DNA of 64,000 nt from Candidatus Hodarchaeota archaeon. Lineage in GTDB: Archaea; Asgardarchaeota; Lokiarchaeia; Sigyniarchaeales; SOKP01. Under the pieces are notes generated by a model. That model was not told the origin of the DNA, searched no databases, and was given only the letters and a program-made list of their open reading frames with translations. Both the position numbers and the translations under genes were made by a program. The stretch spans positions 1 to 64,000 of the forward strand of contig JBHLJY010000012.1 of assembly GCA_048887225.1 (NCBI GenBank), read 5' to 3'. Within the stretch, counting starts at the first letter, position 1; each line of letters begins with the position of its first letter. Positions 13,290 to 45,512 of the stretch are shown piece after piece.

Positions 13290-13715
13290 TTATACCTCCG
13301 TTTTTAGTGGATTAGGTCCTAATTCCTTTAATTCTTCCACGTATTCCTTGACGATTTCAGTTAATTCGGCACCTTCAGAAGCAGATACAAAGGTATATTT
13401 TACCCTTTTTGGATTTATCCCGAATTGTTCTAAATATCGATGAAGAATTGGCATTTTTCGAACTGTTTTATAATTACCTTCTACATAATGACAGTCGCCA
13501 GGATGGCAGTGACTAACTAAAACACCATCAGCCCCGTTCATTAGAGCATCAATTACGAATTGAGGATCAACACGTCCTCCGCACATGACTCTAATGATTC
13601 TCAAATTTGCCGGTCGTTGCATACGAGATGTTCCTGCTTGATCCGCTCCTGCATAACTACACCAATTGCAAAAAATTCCCAATATATATGGATTAAATTC
13701 TGTTTGACTCGCCAT
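13290..13715 (-). CDS. mvhD: MvhD [2Fe-2S] subunit
   Basis: FCNWCSYAGAD, RVMCGGRVDP, CHPGDCHY and SASEG motifs. Confidence 0.93.
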   Translation of the reverse strand: MASQTEFNPYILGIFCNWCSYAGADQAGTSRMQRPANLRIIRVMCGGRVDPQFVIDALMNGADGVLVSHCHPGDCHYVEGNYKTVRKMPILHRYLEQFGINPKRVKYTFVSASEGAELTEIVKEYVEELKELGPNPLKTEV

Positions 13716-13717
13716 TT

Positions 13718-15706
13718 TTATTCACCTCTAGGATTAGATTCTTGTTTGACCGCGGTTTTTATCATAGGTAAGATCTGTGAATCTCCAAATTGATTTTGGA
13801 CGATTGCTTTATTAGGACATGCTGATACGCATGTTCCACATCCTTTACATAATATTTCATTTATCTCAGCAATTCTTTCATATTCATTAAATGTTATCGC
13901 ATTAAAAGCACATAAGCTTAAACAACTTTTACATCCAGAACATAAATGACTAAGAACATAGGAGTAATAGGGTTCAATTTCTACTTCTCCTTGCGCCATT
14001 AATGCTGCTGCACCAGAGGCAGCACCTTTAGCCTGTGCGACTGTATCTGGAATATCTTTAGGTCCCTGAACAGTTCCTGCAACAAAAACACCATCTGTGA
14101 GAGTATCGACTGGGCGTAACTTTGGATGAGCTTCCATAAAGAAACCATCTTCAGATCGTTGTACATTAAATAATCTCGCTACATCTTCGGCATCACATCG
14201 CGGTTCAAGACCAATTGACAGAACTAACAAATCCGCTTTAATTTCCACTTGTCTCTGGAGTAAAGTATCTTCACCACGCACAATAACATTATGTTCATCA
14301 TCCTCGTAAACTTCTGCAAGTCTTCCACGAATAAATTTAATTCCGTAGTTTTTTCCTGCTGATTCATAAAATTCTTCGTATCCTTTTCCAAAAGCTCTTA
14401 CATCCATGTAAAATATATGAATATCTGCTTTTGGATGTTTTTCTTTATATTGGCGTGCTTGTTTTACAGCATACATGCAACATACTCTTGAACAATATTT
14501 ATTGCCTTTTTTTGTAAAATCTCTACTACCAACACATTGAAGAAAGACTATACTATGAGGATCTTTCAAATCTGAAGGTCGTTTGGGCTTACCTTCTGTA
14601 GGTCCAAATGAGCTTAAAAGACGTTCCATCTGAAAACCTGTAATTACATTTGGATATTTACCGAAACCATATTGTTTTAATACTGTTGGATCGTAAGGAT
14701 CCCAGCCAGTGGCTAATATAATAGTCCCAACTTTAACATCTAAATATTCTGGTTTGTCATCATATCTAATAGCTCCAGCAGGACAAACTTCAGCACAAAT
14801 ACCGCATCTAATACAATGATCCATGTCTATTGTATATTCTCCTGGAACTGCCTGGGGGAAAGGAATATAAATAGCTTTGCGATCTTTCATTCCTAAATCA
14901 AATTCATTTCCACATACCACAGGACATTCTTCAGCACATGTACCACAGCCAGTACATGTTTCTTGATCAATGTAATGTGGTTTTTTCATAATAGTAACGT
15001 CAAAATTTCCGACATAACCAGAAATATCAGTTACTTCTGAATAAGTTAAAAGTTCAACATTTTTAGCATTTGCTACTTCAGACATTTTTGGGGTAATAAT
15101 ACAAGCACTACAATCCATTGTAGGGAAAGTTTTATCAAGTTGTGCCATATGCCCCCCAATAGTCGGAGTCTTTTCTACTAAATATACTTTAAATCCTTGA
15201 TTTGAAAGATCTAAAGCGGCATTCATACCAGCAATACCAGCACCTACAATTAAACAAGCGGGTTCGACTTTTACCTTGGTTACCTCTAAAGGTACTAATT
15301 TACTGACTTTCGCCACGGCCATTCTAATATGGTCCTTAGCTACCTCAGTCGCACCTTCAGTATCATATAAATTGACCCATGTACAGTGTTCTCTGATATT
15401 TGCCATTTCAAATAAAAACTGGTTTAAACCGGCTTCTTCACATGTTCGTCTGAAAGTAGGTTCATGCATCCTTGGTGAACACGATGCAACAATAACTCGA
15501 TTAACTAACTCATTTTTTATATCATCCTTGATCATATTTTGACCTATATCGCTACACATAAATTTATACTCGCGTGCGATCACGACATTTGGCAAAGTTT
15601 TGGAATACTCTATTAAATCAGGAACTGAAACGATCCCACCAATATTAATCCCACAATGACAAATATATACACCTATTTTTACATCAACTTCACCCAACTT
15701 CCTCAC
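13718..15706 (-). CDS. hdrA: Heterodisulfide reductase subunit A (Cys form)
   Basis: GVYICHCG, GAGIAG, LDKTFPTMDCSAC, CSRVCC and EAHPKLRPV motifs. Confidence 0.95.
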   Translation of the reverse strand: MRKLGEVDVKIGVYICHCGINIGGIVSVPDLIEYSKTLPNVVIAREYKFMCSDIGQNMIKDDIKNELVNRVIVASCSPRMHEPTFRRTCEEAGLNQFLFEMANIREHCTWVNLYDTEGATEVAKDHIRMAVAKVSKLVPLEVTKVKVEPACLIVGAGIAGMNAALDLSNQGFKVYLVEKTPTIGGHMAQLDKTFPTMDCSACIITPKMSEVANAKNVELLTYSEVTDISGYVGNFDVTIMKKPHYIDQETCTGCGTCAEECPVVCGNEFDLGMKDRKAIYIPFPQAVPGEYTIDMDHCIRCGICAEVCPAGAIRYDDKPEYLDVKVGTIILATGWDPYDPTVLKQYGFGKYPNVITGFQMERLLSSFGPTEGKPKRPSDLKDPHSIVFLQCVGSRDFTKKGNKYCSRVCCMYAVKQARQYKEKHPKADIHIFYMDVRAFGKGYEEFYESAGKNYGIKFIRGRLAEVYEDDEHNVIVRGEDTLLQRQVEIKADLLVLSIGLEPRCDAEDVARLFNVQRSEDGFFMEAHPKLRPVDTLTDGVFVAGTVQGPKDIPDTVAQAKGAASGAAALMAQGEVEIEPYYSYVLSHLCSGCKSCLSLCAFNAITFNEYERIAEINEILCKGCGTCVSACPNKAIVQNQFGDSQILPMIKTAVKQESNPRGE
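15387..15481. repeat. 95-nt exact repeat, copy 1 (in first hdrA)
   Basis: Identical to 21578-21672 while the flanks are diverged. Confidence 0.85.
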
Positions 15707-16686
15707 CTATTTTCTTTAAAAAAGGTTCCAAGGAAATAAATGGAGGTACTCCACTCAAATCATGCTTTTTTACTAGACCAAGGCTTTCAGGTTCCATACC
15801 TAATGCCAGACCTAATAATTGTGTGTAATAAATTACAGGTATTTTAAAAGGAGCATCAATTTTATCTTTAAAAATGTTATTTATTTCTACTTGTCCTAAA
15901 TCTAGTTGTAAATGACAGAATGGACAAACAGTTATTATTGCATCGGCCCCAGTTGCAACAATGTTCTCTAATTTTTCTCTTGTAAAATCCAAAGAAATTT
16001 CTTTAAACGCTCCCCTTACACCTCCTCCTGCTCCGCAACACATTCTTTTATCTTTGTAATCTAAACTTTTGCAACCAGTAGCCTCTACTAGTTCGTCTAA
16101 AAAGCGTGGATCTTCAACTTCAAGATCCCATGGTCTAATTTCTCCAGGTTTTAAAAGATGACACCCATAATGAACAGCTACATTTAAATCTAATTTTTCT
16201 TTTCGACCGTATTTTGTTCTATTTTTTATTTTTTCAAGTCCTATATCGTGATATAAAACTTCGATAATATGTTTAATATCAATTTTTCCCTTATATTCTC
16301 GACCGATTTTAGCGAGATGTTGATTAACCATTTTCCTTTTTTCTTTATTGTGCTTTAATGTATGATTTACTTCAAGCAAACTTCCATAACACCCATTACA
16401 CATTAATGCAATATCAGTACCATTTTCTTCTGCAATTGTTATATTTCTGGCTCCAATTACTAACCATGTGGTGATATCAAATCCTCGGAAAACTCCTGGG
16501 GCGGGACAACACGAGGCACCCTCCATATCGACCAATTCAATGCCTAATTTCTCAAATACATTTCGAGTAGCCTGCTCTATAAAAGGGTAACGATTAGGAA
16601 TTGTGTCTAATTATCTAAATGATAAATTAGTTTACACATCCTAAAAATAAGCTGTATGTCAGTTTTTTATTCTTTGATTTTCTCAT
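15690..16686 (-). CDS. hdrB: Heterodisulfide reductase subunit B, intron-split (exon 1 16686-16632, exon 2 16600-15690; 321 aa spliced)
   Basis: CCPAPG, HYGCH, CCGAGG and CPFCHLQ motifs. The missing N-terminus MRKSKNKKLTYSLFLGCV lies upstream in another frame, and removing 31 nt gives LGCVIPNRYP, matching the paralogue's LGCIIPNRYP. Confidence 0.9.
16601..16631 (-). other. Putative 31-nt BHB-type intron in hdrB mRNA
   Basis: Minus strand reads TTAGGA T GTGT AA^A CTAATTTATC ATTTA GATAATTAG ACAC AA^T TCCTAA: a 4-bp GUGU/ACAC helix, two 3-nt bulges and flanking stems. Confidence 0.8.
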
Positions 16687-21930: not shown

Positions 21931-22881
21931 CTAAATTAATTGCTCTTTTACGATATTTACGAATGGTTCGATGGACATAAAAGGAGACACGTTCTTTAAA
22001 TCATGTGTTTTTTCTAATCCTAATCTAATTGGATTTAGTCCCATTGAAACTCCAAATAATTGAGTAATATATATAACAGGGATTTTAAATGGTTCTCCAA
22101 TCTCATCTTTAAATAAGTTATTTACTTCAACTTGCCCCAAATCAAATTGTAAATGACAGAACGGGCAGCAATCTACGATAATATCTGCGCCTGCATCTCT
22201 CATATTCGTTAACTTTTCGCGCGTAAAATCTGCTGCAATCTCTTTAATCGCACTTCTTACTGCGCCACCCGCACCGCAACACATAAATTTATCCTTGTAG
22301 AATATGCTTTTCGCACCAGTTAATTCAACAAGTTCATCAAGGAATTTTGGGATATTAGCTTTACAGTTCCAAGGTCTTTTATCGGAAGGTTTAACAATAT
22401 GGCACCCATAATGAACTGCAACCTTTAAATCTTTAAATTTATATTTAATATGATCCTCAACATAGTCCTTACCCATATCTAAGTATAATGCCTGAACAAT
22501 ATGTTTAGGCTCTTGACTACCCTTAAACTCACGACCAACTTTAGCAAGAAGCTCATTTACTTGTTTCTTTTTTTTAAGATCGTGTTGAAATTCATACCAT
22601 GCATCTCTTAAACTACCATAACAGCCATTACATCCTGTAATAGGATCAACCCCCAATTCTTCTGCAATTGATAAATTTCTCGCTGCCATTAATTCCCATG
22701 TAGGAATATGAAATGCTCGAAACACTCCAGGTGCGGGACAACACGACGCCCCCTTTATTTCTAATAATTCCGCTCCAAGCTCACAGAATACATCTCTTAT
22801 ACTTGTTGAAATCATAGGGTATCTGTTGGGTATTATACATCCTAAAAAAAATCCATACCTAAATTTTCTTTCTAATATCAT
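21931..22881 (-). CDS. hdrB: Heterodisulfide reductase subunit B (intronless paralogue)
   Basis: FLGCIIPNRYP, CCPAPG, HYGCH, CCGAGG and CPFC motifs. Confidence 0.94.
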   Translation of the reverse strand: MILERKFRYGFFLGCIIPNRYPMISTSIRDVFCELGAELLEIKGASCCPAPGVFRAFHIPTWELMAARNLSIAEELGVDPITGCNGCYGSLRDAWYEFQHDLKKKKQVNELLAKVGREFKGSQEPKHIVQALYLDMGKDYVEDHIKYKFKDLKVAVHYGCHIVKPSDKRPWNCKANIPKFLDELVELTGAKSIFYKDKFMCCGAGGAVRSAIKEIAADFTREKLTNMRDAGADIIVDCCPFCHLQFDLGQVEVNNLFKDEIGEPFKIPVIYITQLFGVSMGLNPIRLGLEKTHDLKNVSPFMSIEPFVNIVKEQLI

Positions 22882-42962: not shown

Positions 42963-45512
42963 TTGGATATTTATTCTATAATTTCTCATCCATTTAGGCG
43001 AAAAATTCTATTACTTTTAGAAATTGAAGGCTATATTCCTTATAGTGACTTAATGGAAAAATTAGGATTAGATACAACGGGGCAGCTTAATTTTCATCTG
43101 AAAAAATTAGGAACCCTCATCAATAAGGATAGAAAATCCTACTATCTTACTGAAGATGGAAAAAGAGTAATTAAAATAATGAATATAAATAAGCGTATTT
43201 TATTTGGAGAGAATATGGATGAATATTTAAATTCGAAAGGAAGCGAGATAACCCGTGTAGGAGTTATAATTTGTAATTGTAATACAGAAATTTCAAATGT
43301 TTTTAATATCATATCACTTCAGAATTATATCAATAAATTAAAGAATGTAGTATCTGTAAAGGTTTTTGAAAATTTATGTCAAGAGAAGAACTTTAAGAAG
43401 ATTACAGATTGGGTGAGGGAGAACTTCTTAAATAAAATAATTATTGCTGCGTGTTCCCCAAAAACACATCAGCATCTTTTTGAACGAATTTTTGATGATG
43501 TTATTGACCATTCAAATATAGAAATCGCTAATATAAGAGAGCAATGTGCTTGGGTGCATCAGTCTAACTCTGATCATATCGATACCGCTCTTACTTTAGA
43601 AAAAGCTCGACTACTAATTGAAGCGGCAATTGAACGAGTTACATTGCAAAAAATCGTAAAAGTTAAGAGAGTAGAAGTAGAAAAAAGTTGTGCCATTTTA
43701 GGAGGAGGGATTGCAGGAATGACTCTTGCTTTAAATTTAGCACGCGCAGGCATTAAAGTACATCTTATTGAAAAATCACCTACATTAGGAGGTAAAGTCG
43801 CTAGATGGCACCGAATATCAAATATCGGGGATTGTTCAATATGCTTTATCTCGGAATTAATAGGAGAATTAGTGAATGAAAAAAATATAAAAATACAAAC
43901 AAATACGGAATTTGTTGATGTATCAGGAGGAGTTGGAGATTTTTCTATAGAGTTGATTAAAAAACCTCGATATGTTGATGTGAAAAAATGTACTGGTTGT
44001 AAACAATGTATCGATGTTTGTAGTATAGAAAAACCTAATCAATATGAATATGGTTTAACAAATCGAAAAATCATCTATATTCCTTTTATTCATTCTTACC
44101 CATACGCTCCATTAATTGATGAAGCTGACCTTAAAAATTGTCTCAACTGTAGAATATGTGAAAGAGCATGCGTAAATAAAGCAATTGATCTGGATCAAAA
44201 ACCAAAAAGAGTAAAAATCAAGGTTGGTGCAAAAGTTATAGCAATTGGTTCTGATCTTTACTTTGATTTAGAAAAATATCATTATAATCCTCAGAATGAT
44301 ATTATAACAACACCTGAATTCGAGCGAATGCTTTCATCAGATGGTTTTACCGATGGCGAGATATTAAAGGTCTCTGATAAAATCCCTCCAAAAACTATTT
44401 CAATTATCCAATGTGTGGGACCTTCAGATAGCAAATGTGAATTTAATTATATCTTGGCGTTAAAATATTTAGAATCTATTAAACAGAAAATTCCTAATTG
44501 TATAGTTAATGTCTTTTATGATTTGAGTCAATTAAGAGAAAATAATAATTTTTTATTTAAATCTACAGATCCTAGATTTCACTATATAAATAAGCTTGAA
44601 ATTATTGATAGAAATAATCAAAAATTTGTTAAAGCAGATGCAGAGGAATTTCAGAGTGATTTAATAATTCTAAATATAACGATGGTACCAAATAAAGATT
44701 TAAAATCACTGCGAAAAACAATGGATTTTACATTGGATGACTATGGCTTTATGAGCGAAGATACATTAACATCTGGAATCTATGGAGTTGGTACGATTTT
44801 TGGCCAATTAAATTATAATTCTACGATATCAACTGCGAACAATGTAGCTTTAAAAATAATTTCATTATTATCGAAAGATTTTTTAATCGCGGAATTTAGT
44901 GGAATTGATATCAACGAAGAATTATGCGGTTTATGTGGATTATGTTTGAAAACATGTCCATATAATGCTCTAACTATCGAATCAGATGTTATTACTATTG
45001 ATAAATTTAAATGTAAAGGATGTGGCACTTGTGTAAGTGTTTGTCCTACAAATGCCATTGAAATGAATCTTGATACTTCTGAAAAAATTATTAAAACTAT
45101 AGAAGTTTTTTCAAAATTTAAAAAAAGACCAAAAATTATCGCTTTTTGTTGTCGTTCATGTGGTTATGCTGCTGCTGATGATGCGGGTTTAAAAAAAAAA
45201 TATTATATTCCAAATACATTTATCGTTCGAGTGCCATGTACCGGTCGTATTGATACAAATTTTATCATTAAATCTTTCGAAAATGGTTTTGATGGAGTAA
45301 TAATTATCGGTTGTAGAAAAAATTCTTGTAGATACATTGATGGAATACAAAAAGCAAAAAAAAAAGTTCAATTATTAAAGAATATACTAAGATCGGGGTA
45401 TAAAGAACGAATACTTCTTGAACATATGAATGCTGTTGAGGGGAATAAATTTGCTGAGATTGTTAATGAATTTTATGATAAAATAAAGGAGGAGATTAAA
45501 TTTGAAGCCTAG
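42963..45512 (+). CDS. ArsR-type wHTH - HdrA-like - MvhD fusion protein
   Basis: SHPFRRKIL...YSDLM..LG....GQLNFHLKKL...YYLTEDG, then ICNC, CSP, NIREQC, GGGIAG, ferredoxin motifs, then FCCRSCGY, RVPCTGR. Confidence 0.88.
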   Translation: MDIYSIISHPFRRKILLLLEIEGYIPYSDLMEKLGLDTTGQLNFHLKKLGTLINKDRKSYYLTEDGKRVIKIMNINKRILFGENMDEYLNSKGSEITRVGVIICNCNTEISNVFNIISLQNYINKLKNVVSVKVFENLCQEKNFKKITDWVRENFLNKIIIAACSPKTHQHLFERIFDDVIDHSNIEIANIREQCAWVHQSNSDHIDTALTLEKARLLIEAAIERVTLQKIVKVKRVEVEKSCAILGGGIAGMTLALNLARAGIKVHLIEKSPTLGGKVARWHRISNIGDCSICFISELIGELVNEKNIKIQTNTEFVDVSGGVGDFSIELIKKPRYVDVKKCTGCKQCIDVCSIEKPNQYEYGLTNRKIIYIPFIHSYPYAPLIDEADLKNCLNCRICERACVNKAIDLDQKPKRVKIKVGAKVIAIGSDLYFDLEKYHYNPQNDIITTPEFERMLSSDGFTDGEILKVSDKIPPKTISIIQCVGPSDSKCEFNYILALKYLESIKQKIPNCIVNVFYDLSQLRENNNFLFKSTDPRFHYINKLEIIDRNNQKFVKADAEEFQSDLIILNITMVPNKDLKSLRKTMDFTLDDYGFMSEDTLTSGIYGVGTIFGQLNYNSTISTANNVALKIISLLSKDFLIAEFSGIDINEELCGLCGLCLKTCPYNALTIESDVITIDKFKCKGCGTCVSVCPTNAIEMNLDTSEKIIKTIEVFSKFKKRPKIIAFCCRSCGYAAADDAGLKKKYYIPNTFIVRVPCTGRIDTNFIIKSFENGFDGVIIIGCRKNSCRYIDGIQKAKKKVQLLKNILRSGYKERILLEHMNAVEGNKFAEIVNEFYDKIKEEIKFEA

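What the first reader, a model, noticed from the sequence alone, without database searches (positions are those of the whole stretch)
16594..16644. tRNA-type bulge-helix-bulge intron inside a protein-coding metabolic gene (hdrB)
Seen: the hdrB ORF lacks its N-terminus, which is encoded upstream (ATG 16686, ...YSLFLGCV). It is separated by a 31-nt insert (16631-16601) that contains stops and shifts the frame. The insert and flanks fold as TTAGGA/TCCTAA (exon-exon stem), GTGT/ACAC (4-bp helix), 3-nt bulges AAA and AAT, and an intron stem CTAAT(T)TATC/GATAATTAG. One extra U makes it a slightly relaxed BHB. Established: the archaeal splicing endonuclease EndA cuts after the second nucleotide of each bulge and RtcB ligates. 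Those cuts give GGA TGT GTA ATT CCT AAT = GCVIPN, matching the intronless paralogue (GCIIPN, 21931-22881). BHB introns are typical of tRNA/rRNA, and the well-known mRNA case is crenarchaeal cbf5. Inference: this is an EndA-spliced mRNA intron in a probable Asgard archaeon. It sits next to the first Fe-S ligand Cys and may gate expression of the hdrB-hdrA-mvhD operon, reminiscent of HAC1/XBP1-type non-spliceosomal splicing.
Basis: partly seen in the sequence, partly recalled or inferred. Interest (0 to 1): 0.95.

Follow-up and report, generated by a model that had tools for sequence, protein, structure and literature searches.

The report
tRNA-type mini-intron in Asgard hdrB
A 31-base insert that breaks the heterodisulfide reductase gene hdrB of an Asgard archaeon has the shape of the introns that archaeal tRNA-splicing enzymes remove. 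It is conserved and co-varying in related genomes, so the mRNA very probably has to be spliced, which published work shows for only one other archaeal protein gene (cbf5).

Summary
On the minus strand, hdrB runs ATG 16686 to 16632, then a 31-nt insert (16631-16601), then 16600-15690. The insert folds as outer helix, 4-bp helix GUGU/ACAC, bulges AAA and AAU, and an inner hairpin.

Cutting after the second nucleotide of each bulge gives ...LGCV-IPNRYP..., a 321-aa HdrB with its first CCG-motif cysteine.

I found 13 hdrB loci, in MAGs and metagenomes, with a homologous 29-, 30- or 31-nt insert at the same codon.
- All fold the same way: 89% of cells are paired against 32-43% in slid controls, and 10 of 19 pairs show changes on both sides.
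- The same cutting rule restores the frame for all three lengths.
- Intron-bearing genes have dN/dS of 0.06-0.13, and exon 1 changes are mostly synonymous.
- Close relatives lack exactly the insert.

The genome encodes a catalytic and a non-catalytic EndA paralogue, and RtcB. I checked similar inserts in rtcB itself, uL11 and cspA.

No RNA data could be obtained, so splicing is inferred, not shown. The regulatory "gating" idea is untested.

Earlier notes of this scan report the same phenomenon on other DNA, in this and other Asgard genomes. The papers I could search describe it only for crenarchaeal cbf5.

The parts
16632..16686 (-). hdrB exon 1: ATG 16686, 18 codons (MRKSKNKKLTYSLFLGCV) plus the first base of the Ile codon
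   Evidence: In intron-bearing relatives the last eight codons differ by six synonymous changes and one Ser-to-Gly change.
16601..16631 (-). 31-nt BHB-type intron. It carries TAA and TAG stops in the exon 1 frame and shifts the frame.
   Evidence: The intronless relative L056 (95% protein identity) lacks exactly these 31 nt.
15690..16600 (-). hdrB exon 2, with two CCG domains and the stop codon included. The spliced product is 321 aa.
   Evidence: Pfam PF02754 E 6.5e-37; dN/dS 0.06-0.09 against relatives
16639..16644 (-). Outer helix h, 5' strand UUAGGA (Leu and Gly codons)
   Evidence: In relatives, third-codon positions on the two strands co-vary: A-U, G-C, G-U (pairs 8-54 and 11-51).
16594..16599 (-). 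Outer helix h, 3' strand UCCUAA (Ile, Pro and Asn codons)
16634..16637 (-). Central helix H, 5' strand GUGU (Cys and Val codons). The U at 16638 is unpaired, or pairs with A16602 to give a 5-bp helix.
16603..16606 (-). Central helix H, 3' strand ACAC (last paired part of the intron)
16631..16633 (-). 5' bulge AAA; predicted cut between 16632 and 16631
   Evidence: Invariant in all 13 loci; cleavage rule from PMC2738675
16600..16602 (-). 3' bulge AAU; predicted cut between 16601 and 16600
16607..16630 (-). Inner helix h' and loop: 5 bp, a 1-nt bulge, 4 bp, then a 5-nt loop
   Evidence: Eight of its nine pairs show changes on both sides across relatives.
13718..15706 (-). hdrA-like gene, overlapping the end of hdrB by 17 nt
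13290..13715 (-). mvhD/FlpD gene
   Evidence: PF02662 E 3.3e-50
21931..22881 (-). Intronless hdrB paralogue (clade B) of the same genome; reads GCIIPN at the homologous site

Best explanation
The 31 nt at 16631-16601 are a bulge-helix-bulge intron in the hdrB pre-mRNA.

Proposed mechanism:
1. In the primary transcript, codons 13-24 fold into outer helix, 3-nt bulge, 4-bp helix, 3-nt bulge and inner hairpin.
2. The heteromeric splicing endonuclease EndA (one catalytic and one non-catalytic paralogue) cuts after the second nucleotide of each bulge.
3. RtcB joins the exons, and probably circularises the intron.
4. The spliced mRNA encodes a 321-aa HdrB whose first CCG-motif cysteine (exon 1) is joined to the rest of the domain.
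5. Unspliced mRNA would give only a 19-residue peptide, or an HdrB lacking that cysteine.

Shown: the structure, its conservation and covariation, exact presence or absence of the insert, purifying selection, and the presence of the enzymes.

Inferred: the cleavage and ligation themselves.

The intron belongs to one sequence family found patchily in two hdrB paralogue clades of this Asgard family, so it has been gained, lost or moved repeatedly.
For: 1. Geometry: the geometry is correct, with helix then bulge 5' to 3' on both strands. The fold is much more stable than shuffles.
2. Recurrence: 13 loci from MAGs and metagenomes carry a homologous insert at the same codon, in lengths 29, 30 and 31 nt.
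3. Same fold: every one gives the same architecture as its minimum-energy fold.
4. Frame rule: one rule, cutting after bulge nucleotide 2, restores ...GCV-IPNRYP... in all of them. The 30-nt versions are in frame but carry a stop. Frameshifting therefore cannot explain all three lengths, while excision can.
5. Covariation: 89.4% of cells are paired against 32-43% when partners are slid. Ten of 19 pairs change on both sides, and 0 of 500 shuffles reach the observed score.
6. Selection: pairs in which both genes carry the intron have dN/dS 0.059 (G000 vs L057, dS 1.67) and 0.078 (G006 vs G002).
7. Exon 1: in the last eight codons, exon 1 keeps its ATG and frame, with six synonymous changes and one Ser-to-Gly change.
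8. Exact indel: L056 (95% protein identity) lacks exactly the 31 nt. G137 lacks exactly the 29 nt of its close relative G128.
9. Codon choice: all nine intron-bearing alleles found without a sequence pattern use UGU GUA, the codons that build the helix and bulge. Of the 17 intronless alleles printed, only 4 do.
10. Enzymes: the genome has an EndA paralogue closest to crenarchaeal catalytic subunits (3p1z_B, E 5e-35) and a second paralogue without the catalytic His. It also has RtcB. Asgard EndA is described as the (alpha-beta)2 type with the L1 loop that permits relaxed motifs (PMC5829648).
11. Other genes: the same genome has BHB inserts in rtcB, uL11 and cspA, which I checked myself.
12. Single copy: the intron sequence occurs only once in the genome, and no Rfam family or tRNA lies there.
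Against: - There is no transcript evidence. The exact spliced junction was not found in JGI metagenome contigs. No protein in the 90% identity cluster is the spliced product of this genome.
- The motif is relaxed here: one unpaired U lies opposite the 3' bulge, or read the other way, a 5-bp helix with a 2-nt bulge.
- In four relatives (G128, G082, L108, L059) the central helix has a G-A mismatch, leaving 3 bp.
- In some metagenome copies the inner stem is weak when folded alone (L109, L111, L118).
- The genome has an intact paralogue, so loss of this copy might be tolerated.
- rtcB, the ligase needed, is itself interrupted.
Confidence: 0.85

Rival explanations
1. Truncated protein: the insert is never removed. 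HdrB is made from an internal start (TTG 16535, or the Met of ...DMEGASCC) without exon 1, and the hairpin is only a 5' leader structure.
For: Gene callers do exactly this. The deposited annotation starts at MPNRYPF (303 aa, P0123), and several relatives are called from MEGASCC. Purifying selection on exon 2 alone would fit.
Against: Exon 1 keeps its ATG, its frame and the YSLFLGCV motif, with mostly synonymous changes in all intron-bearing loci. The truncated product would lack the first Cys of the C-X31-CC motif that every intronless homologue keeps. The structure co-varies at synonymous exon positions, which a mere leader would not need at exactly the splice-compatible register.
Confidence: 0.06
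2. Translational bypass: ribosomes hop over the 29-31 nt, as in phage T4 gene 60 or the mitochondrial byp elements.
For: A short insert with a hairpin and an early stop codon (GUA AAC UAA) looks superficially like a bypass element.
Against: No matching take-off and landing codons exist. GUA is followed at the 3' end by ...ACACAA/UUCC, with no GUN before AUU. The conserved feature is the two bulges around a 4-bp helix, which bypass does not need. The inserts in rtcB, uL11 and cspA obey the same BHB rule.
Confidence: 0.04
3. Decaying pseudogene: a chance insertion broke one of two hdrB paralogues.
For: An intact paralogue lies 5 kb away (21931-22881). The distribution of the insert is patchy.
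Against: dN/dS is 0.06-0.13 between intron-bearing genes, even at dS above 1.5. There is no other stop or frameshift in 302 codons, and exon 1 is preserved. The insert is homologous and structurally conserved across at least three GTDB genera.
Confidence: 0.03
4. Assembly artefact or multi-copy mobile insertion (MITE-like).
For: MAG assemblies can contain chimeric joins.
Against: An independent Logan contig is 100% identical through the insert. Homologous inserts occur in many independent assemblies. nhmmer finds the intron family only once in the genome.
Confidence: 0.01

Closest known systems
cbf5 pre-mRNA intron of Crenarchaeota (Desulfurococcales, Sulfolobales; Watanabe 2002, Yoshinari 2006, Yokobori 2009 = PMC2738675)
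   Same: A BHB-like motif inside a protein-coding gene, with predicted cuts between the second and third bulge residues. It needs a hetero-oligomeric EndA. It interrupts the region of a functionally essential residue. Its phylogenetic distribution is patchy, with inferred gain and loss.
   Different: The gene is different (hdrB, energy metabolism) and so is the phylum (Asgard). The intron is found in two paralogue clades. It is one of several such inserts in the same genome, one of them in rtcB. Splicing here is not shown experimentally, whereas cbf5 splicing was shown by cDNA and in vitro cleavage.
Archaeal tRNA/rRNA BHB introns, including the intron-rich tRNA genes of Asgard archaea (bioRxiv 10.64898/2026.10.13.758758; PMC5829648)
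   Same: The same recognition motif and enzymes. The genome is rich in tRNA introns (15 of 32 ARAGORN tRNAs) and has two EndA paralogues.
   Different: The host RNA is an mRNA. Exon parts of the motif are made of codons, so the structure constrains synonymous sites.
HAC1/XBP1 unconventional splicing (IRE1 plus tRNA ligase/RtcB)
   Same: Non-spliceosomal removal of a short frame-changing intron from an mRNA by an endonuclease, followed in metazoa by RtcB ligation.
   Different: The endonuclease and the RNA motif are different, and the process is regulated by stress. Nothing here shows regulation, so the resemblance is only an analogy.
Translational bypass elements (T4 gene 60; byp elements of yeast mitochondria)
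   Same: Short inserts with hairpins that interrupt reading frames in functional genes.
   Different: These need matched take-off and landing codons, which are absent here. They need no BHB geometry.

Membership tests
Archaeal BHB intron (EndA/RtcB-spliced) | [quoted passage not shown] | tested here: met
   GUGU/ACAC with AAA and AAU. It is a relaxed form: one extra U lies opposite the 3' bulge. The G023 homologue is fully canonical (GGGU/ACCC, UUU, GUGU/ACAU, AAA).
Archaeal BHB intron (EndA/RtcB-spliced) | Cuts after the second nucleotide of each bulge give a functional joined RNA | tested here: met
   The frame and the conserved GCV-IPNRYP are restored in all 13 loci, with introns of 29, 30 and 31 nt. 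The rule is taken from PMC2738675.
Archaeal BHB intron (EndA/RtcB-spliced) | Structure maintained by compensatory change in homologues | tested here: met
   89.4% of cells paired against 32-43% when slid; 10 of 19 pairs with double changes; 0 of 500 shuffles as high. Caveat: the sequences are related, and the structure was derived from them.
Archaeal BHB intron (EndA/RtcB-spliced) | Host encodes a splicing endonuclease able to cut relaxed motifs, and an RtcB ligase | tested here: met
   There are two EndA paralogues. One is nearest the crenarchaeal catalytic subunits, and the other lacks the His. RtcB is present but itself split by a 29-nt BHB insert. The L1 loop was not examined directly.
Archaeal BHB intron (EndA/RtcB-spliced) | Spliced RNA and excised (circular) intron exist | not testable with these tools
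There were no hits to the spliced junction in JGI contigs, and no spliced product in the protein cluster.
Translational bypass element | Matching take-off and landing codons flanking the gap | tested here: not met
   The take-off would be GUA, and no GUN precedes AUU CCU at the 3' end.
Pseudogene | Relaxed selection and further disabling mutations | tested here: not met
   dN/dS is 0.06-0.13, exon 2 is open for 302 codons, and exon 1 is preserved.
Multi-copy mobile insertion (MITE-like) | Several copies in the genome | tested here: not met
   nhmmer with the intron profile finds only the hdrB site in 3.27 Mb.

The most novel reading that the evidence does not exclude
The hdrB intron is a mobile BHB element. 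The same intron family sits at one codon in two paralogue clades, and has been gained or lost at least four times. In G128 and L108 it arrives inside a 5' cassette (upstream region, exon 1, intron, first codons of exon 2) that matches a different genus. That pattern would fit homing-like spread with co-conversion of flanking exons. Together with the intron in rtcB, it could make expression of an energy-metabolism operon depend on the cell's tRNA-splicing capacity.
Probability: 0.2. Interest if true: 0.9.

Novelty: new member of a known kind. Interest (0 to 1): 0.72.

Why it matters
In the papers I could search, endonuclease-spliced introns in archaeal protein-coding genes are documented only for cbf5 of Crenarchaeota.

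This case puts one in a core energy-metabolism gene of an Asgard archaeon, the closest prokaryotic relatives of eukaryotes. It is conserved across several genera, and the same genome has similar inserts in rtcB, uL11 and cspA.

If splicing is confirmed, three things follow:
- Gene callers systematically truncate or split such genes. The deposited annotation of this hdrB starts after the intron.
- Asgard mRNAs are regular substrates of the tRNA-splicing machinery.
- Intron gain, loss and possible mobility can be studied in a protein-coding setting, where exon codons must also build the RNA motif.

Tried and rejected
- Spliced junction: an exact 30-nt spliced-junction search in JGI metagenome contigs gave 0 hits.
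- Protein clusters: the members of the 90% identity protein clusters are the unspliced calls or intronless relatives. None is the spliced product of this genome.
- Genome-wide census: I scanned for BHB motifs that fuse two ORFs. In this 30% GC genome the strict motif is so common that the counts at the true cut (1358) equal those with the cut shifted by 1-2 nt (1220-1356). Ordinary gene boundaries give the same signal; 45470-45500 is one, with an RBS and a TTG start. No census could be made this way. The strict scanner also misses real relaxed cases (uL11, cspA).
- False positive: the covariance-model hit in G051 is not hdrB.
- Pattern scans: most hits in genome and metagenome collections were chance matches in bacteria. 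Only the Asgard hdrB hits were kept.
- Negative searches: the Rfam and tRNA searches of the region found nothing.

Full report
**Observation.** The minus strand of the window reads ATG (16686) MRKSKNKKLTYSLFLGCV, then N and a stop. A second frame is open from 16598 to the stop at 15690. It carries two CCG domains (PF02754, E 6.5e-37). Downstream lie an hdrA-like gene (15706-13718), mvhD/FlpD (13715-13290) and a polyferredoxin.

The two pieces are separated by 31 nt (16631-16601). RNAfold places these 31 nt in a structure with these parts:
- a 6-bp exon-exon helix, UUAGGA/UCCUAA;
- a central helix, GUGU/ACAC, extendable by one U-A pair;
- a 3-nt bulge, AAA, on the 5' strand;
- a bulge, AAU (or AU), on the 3' strand;
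- an inner hairpin.

The energy is -14.5 kcal/mol with z = -3.66, and no shuffle folds as well. On both strands the order is helix then bulge, 5' to 3'. This is the order in pre-tRNA BHB motifs.

Cutting after the second bulge nucleotide is the rule stated for cbf5 in PMC2738675. It joins GUA-A to UU-CCU and gives ...LGCVIPNRYP... and a 321-aa protein. The intronless paralogue at 21931-22881 reads ...LGCIIPNRYP....

**Chance.** In this 30% GC genome a strict motif is common. I defined it as a 4-bp helix with at most one G-U, plus at least 4 contiguous inner pairs, in BHB geometry. It gives 433,646 hits over about 9.7e8 position-by-length combinations, or 4.4e-4 each. A BHB-like fold somewhere therefore means little. 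Here, however, the protein alignment fixes the position and the length, and the motif sits exactly there with a 6-bp outer helix on top.

**Assembly.** An independent Logan contig of run SRR30758827 is identical over 2391 nt, insert included.

**Relatives.** I searched 41 related genomes with exon 2. Two same-genus genomes (G006, G002) carry a 29-nt insert at the same codon of an hdrB gene. A covariance model built on these was run over 151 genomes of the order. Full-length hits occurred only in hdrB of G000, G002, G006, G082, G128 and G023. Intronless sites appeared as 35-nt hits. One weak hit, in G051, was a false positive.

A protein search showed truncated gene calls starting at MEGASCC. 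Their contigs revealed further intron-bearing genes: L057 and L058 (31 nt) and L059-L061 (30 nt, with a quite different 9-bp inner stem). Pattern scans of genome and metagenome collections added L108, L109/L111/L125 and L118. They also gave names to the relatives: Promethearchaeota archaeon AMARA_1S, DZ3M.322, CSMAG_1226 and Bin_204, and Candidatus Thorarchaeota archaeon QM1B.325.

In total 13 distinct loci carry an insert of 29, 30 or 31 nt at this codon. All 13 give the same architecture as their minimum-energy fold. In all of them the same cutting rule restores GCV-IPNRYP. The 30-nt inserts are in frame but contain a stop, while the 29- and 31-nt inserts shift the frame in opposite directions. 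Only removal of the whole insert explains all three.

**Covariation.** On the 13-sequence alignment (A3) the proposed 19 pairs are formed in 89.4% of cells, against 32-43% when partners are slid by 1-3 columns. Ten pairs show changes on both sides, and none of 500 shuffles reaches the observed covariation score. Eight of the nine inner-stem pairs co-vary. In the outer helix the third positions of the Leu/Gly codons co-vary with those of the Ile/Pro codons (A-U, G-C, G-U). The sequences are related and the structure was derived from them, so these figures are supportive rather than a formal probability.

Nine intron-bearing alleles were found without a sequence pattern, and all nine use UGU GUA for Cys-Val, the codons that make the helix and the first bulge bases. 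Only 4 of the 17 intronless alleles printed use these codons.

**Not a pseudogene.** Pairs of genes that both carry the intron give dN/dS of 0.059 (G000 vs L057, dS 1.67), 0.094 (G000 vs L058), 0.078 (G006 vs G002) and 0.131 (G128 vs G082). Across clade-A intron-bearing loci the last eight codons of exon 1 differ by six synonymous changes and one Ser-to-Gly change. The ATG is kept.

The cysteine in exon 1 is the first Cys of a C-X31-CC spacing, which I counted from the translation. This fits the published CCG motif of HdrB, C-X31-39-CC-X35-36-C-X2-C, which I cite from my own knowledge of the family. A protein started downstream would lack a cluster ligand that every intronless homologue keeps.

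**Exact presence or absence.** L056 has 95% protein identity to exon 2. Aligned with the window, it shows a single gap of exactly 31 nt at the predicted borders. G137 lacks exactly the 29 nt of its close relative G128 (exon 2 dS 0.197).

**Distribution.** A tree of exon 2 has two well-supported paralogue clades.
- Clade A (SH-aLRT 98) holds the window's gene with intronless G022 and G020.
- Clade B (SH-aLRT 100) holds the window's own intronless paralogue next to the intron-bearing genes of its congeners G006 and G002.

The intron needs at least four changes on well-supported branches. The introns of both clades are alignable. L118 has clade-B exons but the 31-nt form otherwise seen in clade A.

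In G128 and L108 the upstream region, exon 1 and the intron match G006: 55 of 60 and 30 of 30 identical. Their exon 2 matches G137 at about 95% and G006 at about 77%. This mosaic suggests recombination that carries the intron with its flanks. It does not prove mobility, because repeated loss plus selection on exon bases that pair could contribute.

**Machinery and context.** The genome has two EndA-family ORFs of 201 aa.
- One is closest to the catalytic subunits of Aeropyrum, Sulfolobus and Pyrobaculum EndA (3p1z_B, E 5e-35). It has Tyr and His at the 10-residue spacing of the catalytic pair.
- The other aligns to it at 31% identity and has no His there.

This fits the (alpha-beta)2 enzyme described for Asgard and TACK archaea, the type that cuts relaxed motifs (PMC5829648; bioRxiv 10.64898/2026.10.13.758758).

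RtcB is present, but its own gene is split between ...ISPGGVGY and DINCG... by 29 nt. These form UUGG/CCAA, bulges AUA and AAA, and an 8-bp inner stem. The same cutting rule gives GYDIN. I found this before reading the scan's notes.

Following those notes I checked two more genes:
- uL11 has a 28-nt insert with GGACC/GGUCC, GGCU/GGCU, bulges GUA and UAA and an 8-bp stem, giving GPAVGPTGIN.
- cspA has a 30-nt insert with GUGA/UCAC, giving TGHVKWFDY.

ARAGORN finds introns in 15 of 32 tRNA genes. The hdrB intron sequence occurs once in the genome, and no Rfam family or tRNA lies at the site.

**What is missing.** I could obtain no RNA evidence. The exact spliced junction is absent from JGI metagenome contigs. 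The protein clusters hold only unspliced calls and intronless relatives. A genome-wide census by motif plus ORF fusion failed because gene boundaries give the same signal. The idea that the intron gates expression of the operon is untested.

**Comparison and verdict.** The closest known case is the cbf5 pre-mRNA intron of Crenarchaeota (PMC2738675). It shares the motif, the cutting rule, the need for a heteromeric EndA, the position at a functionally critical residue, and patchy gain and loss.

I found no paper describing such introns in Asgard protein genes. The Asgard tRNA-intron preprint does not mention mRNAs. Earlier notes of this scan report the same kind of insert in other genes of this genome and in other Asgard genomes, some with claimed RNA-derived contigs. 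I did not test those claims.

I rate the BHB-intron reading at 0.85. It is a new member of a known kind. Interest is high because of the lineage, the gene, the number of such inserts in one genome, and the hint of mobility.

Noticed in passing
L024:1646-1674 (G000 C13:33458-33486, + strand): rtcB, the RNA ligase needed for this kind of splicing, is itself split by a 29-nt BHB insert (UUGG/CCAA, bulges AUA and AAA, 8-bp inner stem). The Pfam RtcB profile positions 1-47 and 47-426 lie in different frames, and the predicted junction gives GYDINCG. Production of the ligase would then depend on the ligase.
   Followed up: partly
L131:1619-1646 (G000 C4:65567-65594, - strand): The uL11 gene carries a textbook 28-nt BHB insert (GGACC/GGUCC, GGCU/GGCU, bulges GUA and UAA, 8-bp stem) giving GPAVGPTGIN. 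A second insert with stops lies about 35 nt upstream, between VTGG and PNASGGPP.
   Followed up: partly
G000 C2:11573-11602 (- strand): A cold-shock protein gene is split by a 30-nt insert (GUGA/UCAC, bulges AAA and UCU). The junction gives TGHVKWFDY. The Pfam CSD match starts only at profile position 7.
   Followed up: partly
L027:1501-1664 and L108 compared with L008 and L048: Mosaic genes: in G128 and L108 the upstream region, exon 1 and intron match G006 of another genus (30 of 30 and 55 of 60 nt). Exon 2 matches G137 at about 95% and G006 at about 77%. The intron seems to travel in a recombining 5' cassette.
   Followed up: partly
L118:1875-1934: A clade-B hdrB (exons like G137/G128) carries the 31-nt intron form otherwise seen in clade-A genes. 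This hints at exchange between paralogues.
   Followed up: no
window 15690-16601 (- strand): The deposited annotation of this gene (P0123, 303 aa) begins at MPNRYPF, directly after the intron. Gene callers elsewhere start at MEGASCC. Such introns are silently annotated away.
   Followed up: yes
whole genome G000: ARAGORN finds only 32 tRNA genes, 15 of them with introns, in a 98% complete genome. More interrupted tRNA genes are probably missed.
   Followed up: no
window 45470-45512 (+ strand): A BHB-like motif that would fuse an 849-aa and a 254-aa ORF is an ordinary gene boundary (AGGAGG, TTG start at 45502, overlapping stop). It is an example of the false positives of motif-plus-ORF scans.
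   Followed up: yes
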